32,000 nt of DNA from Formosa sp. Hel1_33_131 (GTDB lineage Bacteria; Bacteroidota; Bacteroidia; Flavobacteriales; Flavobacteriaceae), in assembly GCF_001735745.1 (NCBI RefSeq), contig NZ_CP017260.1, positions 1,740,001 through 1,772,000 of the forward strand, written 5' to 3'. Both the position numbers and the translations under genes were made by a program. Numbering within the stretch: position 1 is the stretch's first letter; the number at the start of each line of letters is the position of its first letter. Of this stretch, positions 16,070-27,939 are shown one piece after another. Under the pieces are notes generated by a model. It made no database searches, had not been told where the DNA came from, and was given only the letters and a program-made list of their open reading frames with translations.

Positions 16070-16110
16070 ATCGCGGGATAGAGCAGTAGGTAGCTCGTCG
16101 GGCTCATAAC
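16070..16110 (+). repeat. attL: 41-nt direct repeat = 2 nt + positions 1-39 of tRNA-fMet (truncated copy)
   Basis: Identical to 27899-27939. Identity ends right after the anticodon loop, and the downstream sequence cannot complete a tRNA. Confidence 0.9.
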
Positions 16111-16181
16111 ACTCCTCACCACCCAATTTCAACTAATTTTATTAACTCATTTTCAAGTAGTTACAAATATATAATCCTACT

Positions 16182-16212
16182 TGTGTTATACGTGCTAGAC
16201 TCTTGTGTTAGA
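16182..16212 (+). repeat. two direct copies of TGTGTTA(T/G)A (candidate integrase arm-type sites), left arm
   Basis: cTTGTGTTAta at 16180-16190 and cTTGTGTTAGA at 16202-16212. The same 9-mer occurs twice near the right end. Confidence 0.55.
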
Positions 16213-16223
16213 TAAAATACGAA

Positions 16224-17459
16224 TTATCCAAAGACTTTAACCTTCATTAATTTCTCTTCTTCAACGTTTAATAAAAGTGGATTGATGTAGTGGTTTTCTA
16301 ATACCTTCATTGAAGTGTGAGATGACAATAATCTGGTATCACTTCCCATGGTATGAAATACCCAAGTAAGGTATGTTTTTCTCAGATGTTTTAGAGTAAA
16401 AGGAGTTTCGATACCTGCAGATTTTCTAAAATGGGTGAACGATCGAGAAACTTTCTCCATGATGGTATTAATTGTGTACGTATTCTCAGGATCGATGAGT
16501 TTGACATTTTTACCTTTCATTTGATCATATCCCATTTCTTTTAAAAGTTTCAATAGATCTTCATTAATAGGGGAGTACTTCTTTGGAGTATTCTTATTCC
16601 CTAATCGTTCAACCTTCAGGTTTCTAAATTGAAAGAATAGCACTCCGTTATTGCCTTGGATAATATCACTCCATTTTAGACTGAGTACTTCCTCTCTACG
16701 TCCACCAACAAGTAGAAAGAGTTTAAATGCGTTAGTCATCCAAGTAGCATACACGTAATCTCTTCTTCCATTGGTTCTTGTTTGTTGAAATGAAGACTTT
16801 GATTCTACCGCTGCTATAATTTTCTCAAACTCATCTTTGGTTAAAATCAAATTATCACCTGTAAGCACTTGTTTTCTAACACAATTTTTAAATGGATTCT
16901 TGATGTCTAACTCTTCGATTTCGATCAAGAACTTATAGAAAGAAGTTATGCTCGTTAAAACCTTGTTGAAGGTTTTGGGGTGAGGGTATTTAATCTCCAA
17001 TTGTCTGTAGAAAATAGAAACATCATTATTTCTGACATTCCCCGGTTTCATCTTCCTGAGATTGTGGTTGTTTTTCAAAGATTTAGCAAAAAGCGTACAA
17101 TACTTAATTAACTCCTTACGATGTTTATCTGATACCTCCTTTTTTAAATGTGCATATTGTGTATCTCCCTTAAGATATTGATCAAAATAAACGAGTGCTT
17201 CAGCAATATTCATTTTAGATCGATCAGGAACCGTTTCCTCCGCACCATTCTCGATTCTCCTTCTAAATTCAATACCCTCAACTACAGCATCAGCGTATAC
17301 CTTTGATTTTAGGAGTTTACTTCGGTGTTTACCAGTAACTCGATCAATAAAACACATCCGGAACACATGGTGGTCGTTGTGACGACAACCCCTGTTATTT
17401 TGTCTACATTTTTTACAGTAGATTTTGATTCCCGAATGTGAATTATTTGGTAATTTCAT
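16224..17459 (-). CDS. tyrosine site-specific integrase
   Basis: Catalytic-type motifs GGRREEV (R), LKHLRKTY (HxxR) and SHTSMKVLENHY (H...Y), and location at the island edge. Confidence 0.9.
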   Translation of the reverse strand: MKLPNNSHSGIKIYCKKCRQNNRGCRHNDHHVFRMCFIDRVTGKHRSKLLKSKVYADAVVEGIEFRRRIENGAEETVPDRSKMNIAEALVYFDQYLKGDTQYAHLKKEVSDKHRKELIKYCTLFAKSLKNNHNLRKMKPGNVRNNDVSIFYRQLEIKYPHPKTFNKVLTSITSFYKFLIEIEELDIKNPFKNCVRKQVLTGDNLILTKDEFEKIIAAVESKSSFQQTRTNGRRDYVYATWMTNAFKLFLLVGGRREEVLSLKWSDIIQGNNGVLFFQFRNLKVERLGNKNTPKKYSPINEDLLKLLKEMGYDQMKGKNVKLIDPENTYTINTIMEKVSRSFTHFRKSAGIETPFTLKHLRKTYLTWVFHTMGSDTRLLSSHTSMKVLENHYINPLLLNVEEEKLMKVKVFG

Positions 17460-17830
17460 TATTGATAAAGTTCTTGAAAGATGGATTCATGCTCCTTATT
17501 AGAGCTAATGTCCAGATTAAAATGGTAAGGCACAAATCCAGTGTCAAATTCCAAACAATCATGGTAGAGGAGTTGATGTAGTTCTTTCTGATCACCATAG
17601 ATTGATTCTAAACGTGGTTTCCATGAATTTGGATATCTTTTTACTAAATCTTCAGCAAAAGGTCTCCAGACCTCTTGTTCGACCTGTATCCGAAAAACAT
17701 ATTCCCTTCCATCTTTGTGGATGTGGATGTGATGATCCCTAAGCCACTTTTTGATCGAACGGTTGTCCTTTCGATTTATATATTGACCAACTTGATGTAG
17801 GTTTATGCGATTAGTAGAGTTATTATTCAT
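17459..17830 (-). CDS. small HTH protein, excisionase/recombination-directionality-like
   Basis: The N-terminal INLHQVGQYINRKDNRSIKKWLRDHHIHIHKDGREYVF resembles Xis/AlpA-type winged HTH. The stop overlaps the integrase ATG (TAATG). Confidence 0.45.
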   Translation of the reverse strand: MNNNSTNRINLHQVGQYINRKDNRSIKKWLRDHHIHIHKDGREYVFRIQVEQEVWRPFAEDLVKRYPNSWKPRLESIYGDQKELHQLLYHDCLEFDTGFVPYHFNLDISSNKEHESIFQELYQ

Positions 17831-17858
17831 TGCCTTAAAATTATTTTGATGATATCGT

Positions 17859-27156: not shown

Positions 27157-27693
27157 ATGTCAAGCACTAATTCAAAAGATAAAGACAAACCTTCAAAAAG
27201 AATTGAATACCGAGGGAAAAATGTCCGAGTTTCAAGAACAGGAGGTGTTTCTGCAACGAAAACATTTAAGGGTGATGGAATTGGTGCTACCATAAACACC
27301 AAACACGGACTTCGTCTTCACAAACGATTATTTAAGGGTGCAAGAATGGGTTTCCAAAACGGTAACTTTCAGTTTATTGGGAGGTATAAAAGTGGCCCAT
27401 TCAATTTCAATGTCTCAAAAAACGGATTAAGTACATCCTTAAAAAATAAACGAGGTTCCTATAACATCTTCAAACCCAATTATTCCAGTTTCAAATTAGG
27501 TGGTGTTCAAGTAAGAGGAAAAAACGCTGCTACTTTTCAAATGATCTACATGGTGATCATTCTCTTTGTTAATTTCATTAAAGTATTTTGGCACATTTTC
27601 ATCTCTTTTTTGTGGTTTGGTTTTTTATCCATTAAATGGATTGTAGACTTTACAATTGGATTTTTCAAAGGTTTTAAAGAAATTGATTCTTAA
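27157..27693 (+). CDS. DUF4236-like protein with C-terminal transmembrane region
   Basis: Repeated basic beta-hairpin-like segments (VRVSRTGGVSATK, NVSKNGLSTSLKNKRGSYN) and two C-terminal hydrophobic helices. Confidence 0.5.
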   Translation: MSSTNSKDKDKPSKRIEYRGKNVRVSRTGGVSATKTFKGDGIGATINTKHGLRLHKRLFKGARMGFQNGNFQFIGRYKSGPFNFNVSKNGLSTSLKNKRGSYNIFKPNYSSFKLGGVQVRGKNAATFQMIYMVIILFVNFIKVFWHIFISFLWFGFLSIKWIVDFTIGFFKGFKEIDS

Positions 27694-27754
27694 TAATTCA
27701 GAAATATTAATGATAACAAGTTTGATTGAAATTTACAAAAATAAATCTCGAGTC

Positions 27755-27817
27755 TGTGTTAGATTTTTGTGCTACAAAATCCTATGAATTACCATTAAAT
27801 GCAGGTTTTGTGTTAGA
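27755..27817 (+). repeat. two direct copies of TGTGTTAGA (candidate arm-type sites), right arm
   Basis: TGTGTTAGA at 27755-27763 and 27809-27817, in the same orientation as the left-arm copies. Confidence 0.55.
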
Positions 27818-27882
27818 ACTAAAAACACCTTCCTTTTTTTAATTTATATTCAAATAAACCTTGTAGAACTTAAAAACTATCT

Positions 27883-27890
27883 TATATTTG
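27883..27890 (+). promoter_or_regulatory. TATATTTG -7 box (with cTTG 19 nt upstream) driving the intact tRNA-fMet
   Basis: Matches TAnnTTTG, 10 nt before tRNA position 1. Confidence 0.55.
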
Positions 27891-27898
27891 CAGTCTAA

Positions 27899-27939
27899 AT
27901 CGCGGGATAGAGCAGTAGGTAGCTCGTCGGGCTCATAAC
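27899..27939 (+). repeat. attR: 41-nt direct repeat, forms the 5' part of the intact tRNA
   Basis: Identical to 16070-16110. Confidence 0.9.

What the first reader, a model, noticed from the sequence alone, without database searches (positions are those of the whole stretch)
16070..27939. Integrative island bounded by a duplicated 5' half (not 3' half) of the initiator tRNA-Met gene
A perfect 41-nt direct repeat (atcgcgggatagagcagtaggtagctcgtcgggctcataac) sits at 16070-16110 and 27899-27939. The right copy begins a complete 73-nt tRNA with initiator hallmarks. The left copy stops at tRNA position 39, just 3' of the anticodon loop, and is followed by unrelated sequence. A tyrosine integrase gene ends 113 bp inside the left repeat. 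tRNA-targeting elements normally duplicate the 3' segment and lie downstream of the intact gene. Here the 5' segment is duplicated and the element lies upstream. The functional initiator tRNA is therefore a hybrid, with its promoter and first 39 nt from one recombination partner and its 3' half from the other. Both copies are preceded at 10-11 nt by the same TATATTTG -7 box. The ~27 nt ending in that box are only about two-thirds identical by my eye alignment. This looks like two diverged versions of one tRNA promoter, one of them presumably carried by the element as part of attP.
Basis: partly seen in the sequence, partly recalled or inferred. Interest (0 to 1): 0.78.

Follow-up and report, generated by a model that had tools for sequence, protein, structure and literature searches.

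The report
Island upstream of initiator tRNA gene
An 11.8-kb mobile island has inserted into the middle of the cell's start-codon tRNA gene and repairs it "backwards", supplying the promoter and front half instead of the usual back half; this layout is rare but already described, and here it marks a whole clade of Bacteroidota integrases.

Summary
A perfect 41-nt repeat (16070-16110 and 27899-27939) bounds an 11,788-bp island. The right copy starts an intact initiator tRNA-Met. The left copy stops at tRNA position 39 and lies 113 nt from the stop of a tyrosine integrase gene.

Metagenome contigs of the same species (97.7% identity over 12 kb) carry the empty site: CPXCG gene, the same promoter, an intact tRNA. 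The same island (99.5% identity, same ends) sits in other hosts whose tRNA 3' halves differ. The element arm upstream of the tRNA holds a Bacteroidetes-type promoter and three TGTGYTAGA-like repeats. It is conserved in element variants with different cargo.

In 26 of 80 genomic loci with related integrases, a truncated initiator-tRNA 5' half ends exactly at the anticodon loop, 112-120 nt from the integrase stop. These integrases form one clade. The sister clade uses the conventional layout on a non-initiator tRNA(CAT), with a repeat that starts at the anticodon loop. So the crossover is most likely in the loop.

Integration into the 5' half of a tRNA gene is already documented: pTN3-like integrases in archaea, rare bacterial cases, and Klebsiella arg2 islands. 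This is a new member of a rare known kind. No circular form was shown and promoter use is untested.

The parts
13916..15829 (+). Host flank: ABC-F ATPase gene. Its identical protein served as the anchor for finding empty sites.
   Evidence: Pfam ABC_tran/ABC_tran_Xtn; identical protein on island-free contigs.
15829..16011 (+). Host flank: 60-aa CPXCG zinc-ribbon gene (Zn_ribbon_21).
   Evidence: Gene call and Pfam PF14255 on collinear contigs L001-L010. Window coordinates were derived from collinearity.
16020..16069 (+). B arm: the host's original tRNA promoter region, with the -7 box TATATTTG at 16053-16060. It now drives only the truncated fragment.
   Evidence: Identical to the sequence upstream of the intact tRNA at empty sites. 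Promoter function is inferred from the Bacteroidetes -33/-7 consensus, not tested.
16070..16110 (+). attL core: the left copy of the 41-nt repeat. It holds 2 nt upstream plus tRNA positions 1-39, the displaced host 5' half.
16111..16223 (+). P' arm of the element, 113 nt. It holds three same-orientation repeats at 16182-16190 (TGTGTTATA), 16191-16199 (CGTGCTAGA) and 16204-16212 (TGTGTTAGA), proposed as arm-type integrase sites.
   Evidence: Motif search. Conserved in 18 of the 19 distinct P' arms aligned; the exception is the decayed L032/L033 remnant.
16224..17459 (-). Int1, a 411-aa tyrosine integrase that reads toward the truncated tRNA fragment.
   Evidence: PF00589; PHROG integrase 6.8e-24. 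R254, K282, R360 and Y391 are invariant and H381 nearly invariant across 23 homologs.
17459..17830 (-). 123-aa gene overlapping the int start; a candidate excisionase or accessory DNA-binding protein.
   Evidence: Homologs lie directly upstream of int in both integrase clades. The AlphaFold model (pLDDT 75) has an N-terminal winged-helix that weakly resembles Xis, RdfS and BldC; no match was significant.
17859..20954 (-). Cargo: a 516-aa protein of unknown function plus a 510-aa type II DNA methyltransferase. Together they may form a restriction-modification pair.
   Evidence: PF01555; PADLOC MTase_II 7e-18. The 516-aa protein matches no family.
21078..23416 (-). Cargo: a 193-aa ORF, a 149-aa ORF and a 210-aa small serine recombinase (22784-23416).
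   Evidence: PF00239 1.3e-32. The recombinase module is shared with elements that carry other integrase types.
24286..27693 (+). Cargo: DUF6660 gene, TonB-dependent receptor (24661-26844), a 46-aa ORF, and a 178-aa protein with a weak DUF4236 match (27157-27693).
   Evidence: Pfam. The module recurs next to the same tRNA with many other cargoes.
27750..27898 (+). P arm of the element. It holds three repeats at 27755-27763, 27768-27776 and 27809-27817, and the element-borne tRNA promoter (TTG 27861-27863, 19-nt spacer, TATATTTG 27883-27890).
   Evidence: About 150 nt are conserved in 12 distinct P arms whatever the upstream cargo, and conservation starts at the first repeat. Motif search. Promoter function is inferred.
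27899..27939 (+). attR core: the right copy of the 41-nt repeat, the element-derived 5' half of the working tRNA.
27901..27974 (+). Intact hybrid initiator tRNA-Met(CAT). Positions 1-39 come from the element and the rest from the host.
   Evidence: ARAGORN, Rfam. An identical P arm and 5' half are joined to at least 5 T-stem variants in different hosts.
28101..29330 (+). Not part of the island. Int2 is a second, unrelated tyrosine integrase directly downstream of the tRNA, in the conventional position. Its island runs past the window end.
   Evidence: PF00589; no similarity to Int1. No 3'-half repeat occurs in the window.

Best explanation
The region 16111-27898 is an integrative island of a Bacteroidota element family, and its tyrosine integrase (Int1) recombines attP with the initiator tRNA-Met gene. 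Strand exchange most likely occurs in the 7-bp anticodon loop (CTCATAA), with the anticodon-stem arms acting as core sites. attP is about 300 bp. It consists of a P arm (about 150 nt, with three TGTGYTAGA-like arm sites and a Bacteroidetes -33/-7 promoter), tRNA positions -2 to 39, and a P' arm (113 nt with three more arm sites) followed by int. Integration leaves the host promoter attached to a dead 5' fragment at attL. At attR it builds a working tRNA whose promoter and first 39 nt come from the element and whose 3' half comes from the host. This is the mirror image of the usual tRNA island. Shown here: the boundaries, the empty site, the same unit in different hosts, the chimeric tRNAs, the conserved arms, and the clade-wide pattern. 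Inferred: the exact crossover position, promoter use, and Int1 (with the 123-aa partner as a possible excisionase) as the catalyst.
For: Empty sites: L001-L005 and L008 align to window 3915-16110 at 97.5-97.7% identity. The alignment stops exactly at the end of the repeat, and the tRNA there is intact. Same unit elsewhere: window 16111-27898 aligns end to end at 99.5% with the island in L121 and 99.7% with L116. Both sit beside era/der genes, and in L121 the island is joined to a tRNA with a different T stem. L122 shares the left 7.5 kb (99.85%) and the right 0.76 kb but carries other cargo. Junction types B-B', B-P', P-B' and P-P' were all found. An identical P arm plus 5' half joins at least 5 compensatory T-stem variants. 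Arm repeats and the promoter are conserved. Across the family, 26 of 80 genome loci have the truncated initiator 5' half ending at GGGCTCATAA(C), 112-120 nt from the int stop. The intact tRNA lies 9-10 kb away in L045, L049 and L069, and the repeat there is the 5' half. The sister clade sits next to an intact non-initiator tRNA(CAT), and its 44-nt repeat starts at position 32-33 (L089, L097). The two repeat types overlap only in the anticodon loop. The 5'-type integrases form one clade in a neighbour-joining (NJ) tree. A host-specific C16 in the attL fragment follows the host arm with two different elements, which places the crossover 3' of position 16.
Against: No circular or excised form was demonstrated. 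The P-P' junctions found (L032-L036) can all be explained by tandem arrays or remnants. The crossover position is inferred from the limits of identity, not mapped. Promoter activity is judged only against a consensus recalled from the literature. The island is mosaic: its recombinase and receptor modules occur with other integrases and cargoes. The NJ tree has no support values and is midpoint-rooted.
Confidence: 0.85

Rival explanations
1. The island is not one element but an accretion. An Int1 module (16111 to about 23600) sits beside the remnant of another element (receptor module plus P arm), and the P arm with its promoter belongs to that other element or to an ancestral host locus.
For: The DUF6660/receptor/178-aa module with the same P arm occurs behind very different cargo, including BREX, mercury/copper and RND genes. 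The small serine recombinase module occurs with at least 4 integrase types. Tandem arrays and decayed junctions exist.
Against: The full 11.8 kb recurs with identical ends at 99.5-99.7% identity in unrelated host contexts. No internal att remnant lies between the modules in the window. The P arm is kept when the receptor module is replaced (L122). It carries the same repeat motif as the Int1-side P' arm.
Confidence: 0.1
2. The left 41-mer is a decayed second tRNA gene or a segmental duplication, and the 11.8 kb between the copies is ordinary strain-variable DNA exchanged by homologous recombination rather than by an integrase.
For: Some loci carry two complete tRNA copies flanking variable DNA (L028, L029).
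Against: Empty sites have one intact tRNA and no fragment. The truncation point is the same base in 26 genomes across two bacterial classes, at a fixed distance from int. The fragment is perfect in the window, not decayed.
Confidence: 0.02
3. The small serine recombinase (22784-23416), not Int1, catalyses integration at the tRNA.
For: It is a complete recombinase (PF00239, 1.3e-32) and travels with many island types.
Against: It occurs with several unrelated integrases at other sites. Int1 homologs keep a fixed spacing to the tRNA core even where cargo differs. The type of target site follows the Int1 phylogeny.
Confidence: 0.03

Closest known systems
pTN3-like integrases of Thermococcales (pTN3, TKV4)
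   Same: attB is the 5' half of a tRNA gene. A 41-bp identity covers roughly positions 2-44. Integration rebuilds a full tRNA that is separated from its original promoter and expressed from an element promoter (PMC8371274; PMC5495485).
   Different: These are archaeal SSV-type enzymes whose attP lies inside the int ORF, so int is split on integration, and the tRNA is reported to use the integrase promoter. Here int stays intact, lies on the opposite arm and converges on the displaced fragment. A separate tRNA-type promoter sits in the P arm. Sequence homology to Int-pTN3 was not tested.
Anticodon-loop tRNA integration sublocation (Williams 2002), conventional 3'-restoring islands
   Same: A tyrosine integrase, a crossover region flanked by the symmetric anticodon stem, regeneration of the tRNA, and tandem arrays. 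The sister clade of Int1 has exactly this layout on a non-initiator tRNA(CAT).
   Different: The duplicated segment is the 5' part plus 2 nt upstream instead of the 3' part. The island lies upstream of the intact gene, and the element has to bring a promoter.
Klebsiella pneumoniae islands integrated upstream of the arg2 tRNA gene (preprint 10.1101/2020.11.02.365908)
   Same: These are bacterial genomic islands at the 5' end of a tRNA gene, upstream of the intact copy.
   Different: The recombination site there covers the 5' acceptor strand, D-stem and D-loop. Here the identity runs to the end of the anticodon loop. The phylum, the tRNA and the integrase group all differ.
SXT/R391 at prfC and dusA-specific islands
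   Same: Integration into the 5' end of an essential or conserved gene, with the element supplying a new 5' end and promoter. The SXT details are from my own knowledge; the dusA family is in PMC4482086, listed.
   Different: Those targets are protein-coding genes, not a tRNA gene.

Membership tests
tRNA-targeting tyrosine-integrase genomic island | Encodes a tyrosine recombinase with the catalytic residues | tested here: met
   PF00589 above its cutoff. R254, K282, R360 and Y391 are invariant and H381 nearly invariant in 23 homologs.
tRNA-targeting tyrosine-integrase genomic island | Island bounded by a direct repeat of part of a tRNA gene, with one intact copy | tested here: met
tRNA-targeting tyrosine-integrase genomic island | Island-free relatives have an uninterrupted tRNA at the same site | tested here: met
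   L001-L005 and L008, 97.5-97.7% identical in the flank.
tRNA-targeting tyrosine-integrase genomic island | Excised circular form with a reconstituted attP | tested here: inconclusive
   P-core-P' junctions were found but fit tandem arrays or remnants. Contig L016 is 11,885 bp, which equals the repeat unit plus 56 bp, but its first 565 bp could not be read.
Conventional anticodon-loop tRNA islands (Williams 2002) | Identity block has one boundary at the anticodon loop | tested here: met
   The repeat ends at position 38-39 in all 26 loci of the clade. The sister clade's repeat starts at position 32-33.
Conventional anticodon-loop tRNA islands (Williams 2002) | The element carries the 3' part of the tRNA and lies downstream of the intact gene | tested here: not met
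   The 5' part is duplicated, the island lies upstream, and the 3' half is single-copy.
pTN3-like 5'-half-targeting integrases | attB corresponds to the 5' half of a tRNA gene | tested here: met
pTN3-like 5'-half-targeting integrases | attP lies within the integrase ORF, so int is split on integration | tested here: not met
   The Int1 ORF is intact and ends 113 nt from the core.
pTN3-like 5'-half-targeting integrases | The regenerated tRNA is driven by the integrase promoter | tested here: not met
   int is on the other arm and converges on the fragment. The sequence upstream of the intact tRNA is a non-coding arm following the 178-aa gene. Actual transcription was not tested.
pTN3-like 5'-half-targeting integrases | Sequence homology to Int-pTN3 | not tested
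Integrative conjugative element | Relaxase and type IV secretion genes inside the island | tested here: not met
   No such Pfam, NCBIfam or PHROG match in any island ORF of 80 aa or more.

The most novel reading that the evidence does not exclude
Int1 and its relatives are an undescribed, phylum-wide bacterial integrase clade that arose by a single flip of att-site architecture. The ancestor restored the 3' part of an elongator-type tRNA(CAT), and this clade restores the 5' part of the initiator tRNA. As a result a mobile element, not the host, supplies the promoter of the initiator tRNA gene in many marine and freshwater Bacteroidota. That could give the element control over, or a hold on, translation initiation capacity.
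Probability: 0.3. Interest if true: 0.65.

Novelty: new member of a known kind. Interest (0 to 1): 0.5.

Why it matters
The window gives a clean, comparatively documented bacterial example of a rare way to use a tRNA gene as a landing site. Two sister integrase clades share the crossover point but carry opposite halves of the tRNA, which is a natural experiment on how attachment sites evolve. Island finders that assume 3' fragments or downstream islands would miss or misplace these elements. The initiator tRNA gene in this Polaribacter-like population turns out to be a two-sided hotspot where defence and metal-resistance cargo accumulates. If the element promoter is the one in use, an essential tRNA is transcribed under the control of a mobile element.

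Tried and rejected
1. A metagenome scan for the predicted attP junction gave 5 hits. One (L031) is an attL in a host whose own upstream sequence resembles the element arm. The rest are remnants or sit in contexts consistent with tandem arrays. None has terminal overlaps. The scan therefore gives no proof of a circle.

2. I tried to read the first 565 bp of contig L016 by looking up the serine recombinase. That protein is in 674 blocks and the contig was not returned.

3. Four look-ups of Int2 with different start codons found nothing on record. Its island ends and its attachment site remain unknown.

4. Int1 and Int2 are not related, so the two islands are independent.

5. The 123-aa protein has no Pfam, NCBIfam, PHROG or PADLOC match. 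The fold search gave only sub-threshold local matches to excisionase-like winged helices.

6. Literature searches could not use the prime sign. Williams 2002 and the TIGER paper are not held. The bacterial precedents they may list could therefore not be checked directly.

7. The sigma-70 promoter scanner was not used because Bacteroidota promoters differ from that consensus.
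Full report
**Observation.** The 41-nt sequence occurs exactly twice in the window, at 16070-16110 and 27899-27939. 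It has no mismatches, and no match appears in 100 shuffles. With one mismatch the repeat extends to 45 nt. The right copy begins the only tRNA in the window, tRNA-Met(CAT) at 27901-27974 by ARAGORN and 27901-27973 by Rfam at 66 bits. Its sequence shows the bacterial initiator hallmarks: C1 opposite U72, A11:U24, and three G:C pairs closing the anticodon stem. The left copy stops at tRNA position 39 and is followed by unrelated sequence. A 411-aa tyrosine integrase gene (Int1, 16224-17459, minus strand, PF00589) ends 113 nt from the repeat. TATATTTG lies 11 nt before the left copy's tRNA +1 and 10 nt before the right copy's. [quoted passage not shown] GldL, GldM and GldN genes upstream place the host in the Flavobacteriia. 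The closest named genome loci are uncultured Polaribacter.

**Empty site.** The ABC-F protein encoded left of the repeat is found with an identical sequence on many metagenome contigs. Six of them (L001-L005, L008) carry the ABC-F gene, the CPXCG zinc-ribbon gene, and then an intact tRNA-Met with no island. They align with window 3915-16110 at 97.5-97.7% identity, and the alignment ends at the last base of the repeat. The sequence upstream of their tRNA is that of the window's left copy. The host promoter is therefore now attached to the truncated fragment, and the sequence upstream of the working tRNA is island DNA. No separate tRNA fragment exists at the empty sites.

**Mobility as a unit.**
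- The identical Int1 protein occurs next to the same 5' half in several host contexts.
- Window 16111-27898 aligns end to end at 99.5% with the island in L121 and at 99.7% with L116. Both lie beside era and der GTPase genes, and in L121 the island is joined to a tRNA with a different T stem.
- L122 shares the left 7.5 kb at 99.85% and the right 0.76 kb, but has different cargo between them.
- The identical 178-aa protein at the right end of the island is recorded in 297 blocks of the collection. In all ten loci retrieved it lies 207 bp before the tRNA. Its P arm and 5' half are joined to at least five 3' halves that differ by compensatory T-stem changes.

These are chimeric tRNAs, as expected if the front half travels with the element.

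**Attachment-site anatomy.** I sorted every copy of the 5' half by its flanks. All four junction types appear:
- host arm plus full tRNA (empty site);
- host arm plus element P' arm (attL);
- element P arm plus tRNA 3' half (attR);
- P arm plus P' arm.

The P arm is conserved for about 150 nt in 12 distinct versions, whatever lies further upstream. Conservation begins at the first of three repeats: TGTGTTAGA at 27755, TGTGCTACA at 27768 and TGTGTTAGA at 27809. The 113-nt P' arm holds three more repeats in the same orientation, at 16182, 16191 and 16204. I read these as arm-type integrase sites, which gives an attP of about 300 bp. The P arm also contains TTG, a 19-nt spacer and TATATTTG, ending 10 nt before tRNA +1. 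This fits the Bacteroidetes -33/-7 promoter consensus as I recall it. The TTG and TATATTTG motifs are unchanged in all 12 P arms; the spacer varies at three positions. Promoter function is inferred only.

**Family survey.** Int1 has 372 homologs in the protein search. A genome scan with an alignment of 23 of them returned 80 loci.
- **5'-type clade.** In 26 loci the integrase stop is followed, at 112-120 nt, by a truncated initiator-tRNA 5' half ending at GGGCTCATAA or one base further. These come from Polaribacter-like Flavobacteriaceae (66-98% identity to Int1) and from Chitinophagaceae, Sediminibacterium and Sphingobacteriia (40-48%). In L045, L049 and L069 the intact initiator tRNA lies 9-10 kb away at the far end, and the repeat is the 5' half plus 2 to 76 nt of upstream sequence. 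Their P arms also carry a TAnnTTTG box.
- **3'-type clade.** In 43 other loci (37-45% identity, mostly Flavobacterium) the integrase converges on an intact, non-initiator tRNA(CAT) 67-408 nt away. Where the second repeat lies within the fetched DNA (L089, L097/L098), it is the 3' 43-44 nt of the tRNA and starts at position 32-33.
- **Crossover.** The two kinds of repeat overlap only in the anticodon loop, which I take as the crossover region.
- **Phylogeny.** In a midpoint-rooted neighbour-joining tree the 5'-type integrases form one clade and the 3'-type the other. The tree has no support values.
- **Host marker.** A host-specific C at position 16 of the attL fragment is seen with two different elements in the same host arm (L117, L122). 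The attL 5' half is therefore host DNA and the crossover lies 3' of position 16.

**Other parts.** A 123-aa gene overlaps the int start, and homologs of it sit in that position in both clades. Its model (pLDDT 75) has an N-terminal winged helix with weak, non-significant resemblance to Xis, RdfS and BldC. An excisionase role is a guess. Cargo includes a type II methyltransferase next to an unknown 516-aa protein, a small serine recombinase, and a TonB-dependent receptor module. No conjugation genes were found.

**What is not shown.** No circular form was demonstrated. The P-P' junctions from the metagenome scan fit remnants or tandem arrays. A complete Polaribacter chromosome locus (L036) has such an array, with an older, mutated junction. 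Contig L016 measures 11,885 bp, the repeat unit plus 56 bp, which hints at a circle, but its first 565 bp could not be read.

**Comparison with what is known.**
- A review of archaeal tyrosine recombinases states that pTN3-like integrases use the 5' half of a tRNA gene. It adds that the rebuilt tRNA is expressed from the integrase promoter, and that a similar situation has seldom been met in bacteria, citing Williams 2002 (PMC8371274).
- pTN3 shares 41 bp with tRNA-Leu, and its int gene is split on integration (PMC5495485).
- A Klebsiella preprint reports islands upstream of arg2 whose site covers the acceptor 5' strand, D-stem and D-loop.
- The Islander pipeline explicitly allows a 5' fragment upstream of the tRNA gene.

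The principle is therefore known but rare. This case differs from pTN3 in having an intact int on the opposite arm and a dedicated promoter in the P arm. It differs from the Klebsiella case in using the anticodon loop. I found no description of this Bacteroidota clade, but the library is incomplete and Williams 2002 could not be read.

**Verdict.** This is an ordinary kind of mobile island in a rare mirror-image configuration, and a new member of that rare kind. The added finding is that the configuration defines a whole integrase clade whose sister clade is conventional.

Noticed in passing
window 28023-29330 (likely start GTG 28101), continuing to 32000: A second tyrosine integrase (Int2) starts just downstream of the tRNA, in the conventional position and in the same orientation as the tRNA. 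It is unrelated to Int1. No repeat of the tRNA 3' end lies within the window, and the protein is not on record in the contig collection. If it marks a 3'-side island, the tRNA could carry DNA from two different elements.
   Followed up: partly
L022, L025, L027 (tRNA at 10745-10818; 3' half repeated at about 18000): Conventional islands at the same tRNA: a 337-347-aa integrase next to a displaced, exact 3' half, while the working tRNA carries a 3' half with four T-stem differences. The initiator tRNA gene is therefore a two-sided hotspot.
   Followed up: partly
L021, L024, L116 (after the tRNA) and L029 2010-3631: Large serine recombinase genes (529-549 aa) abut or overlap the 3' end of the same tRNA. 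In L029 two complete tRNA copies flank an island that combines this recombinase with the receptor module and P arm. How that arrangement arose is unexplained.
   Followed up: no
window 22335-23416; L116-L125: The identical 210-aa small serine recombinase, usually with its 149-aa neighbour, is listed in 674 blocks of the collection. It travels with at least four different integrase types, so it looks like a shared accessory module, possibly a multimer resolution system.
   Followed up: partly
window 24286-27693; L021-L030: The DUF6660 / TonB-dependent receptor / 46-aa / 178-aa module (the 178-aa protein is in 297 blocks) lies directly upstream of the tRNA behind very different cargo, including BREX genes, mercury and copper resistance genes, RND efflux genes and SNF2 helicases.
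   Followed up: partly
L016 (JGI contig Ga0208305_10001316, 11,885 bp): The contig is 99.98% identical to the island, and its length equals the repeat spacing (11,829) plus 56 bp, as expected for a circular assembly with a terminal overlap. The first 565 bp could not be fetched.
   Followed up: partly
L012 about 11390-11560 (minus strand); also the host arms of L014, L017-L019, L120: Some host arms contain, 40-60 nt upstream of the tRNA, an inverted anticodon-stem-loop look-alike (reverse complement CTCTCGGYTCATAATRCCGAC). L012, L117 and L122 also have an older, heavily mutated 5'-half-plus-P' remnant. These may be traces of earlier integrations, or a secondary site.
   Followed up: no
L036 11350-11533 and 14206-14441: A Polaribacter chromosome carries a tandem array. 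A live P-core-P' junction sits next to int, and a second, older junction has mutations in the fragment (CTCATAA changed to CTGATAA, GCTC changed to GTTC).
   Followed up: partly
window 16224-17459, Int1 residues 15-27: C15, C18 and C25 are invariant and H27 is nearly invariant across 23 homologs (CxxC...CxH). This suggests a zinc-binding N-terminal domain, perhaps the arm-binding domain.
   Followed up: no
L043 10001-10913: An Int1-like fragment (88% identity, residues 138-406) lies 33 nt from an intact tRNA-Phe rather than an initiator tRNA fragment. It may be a rearranged remnant or a change of target.
   Followed up: no
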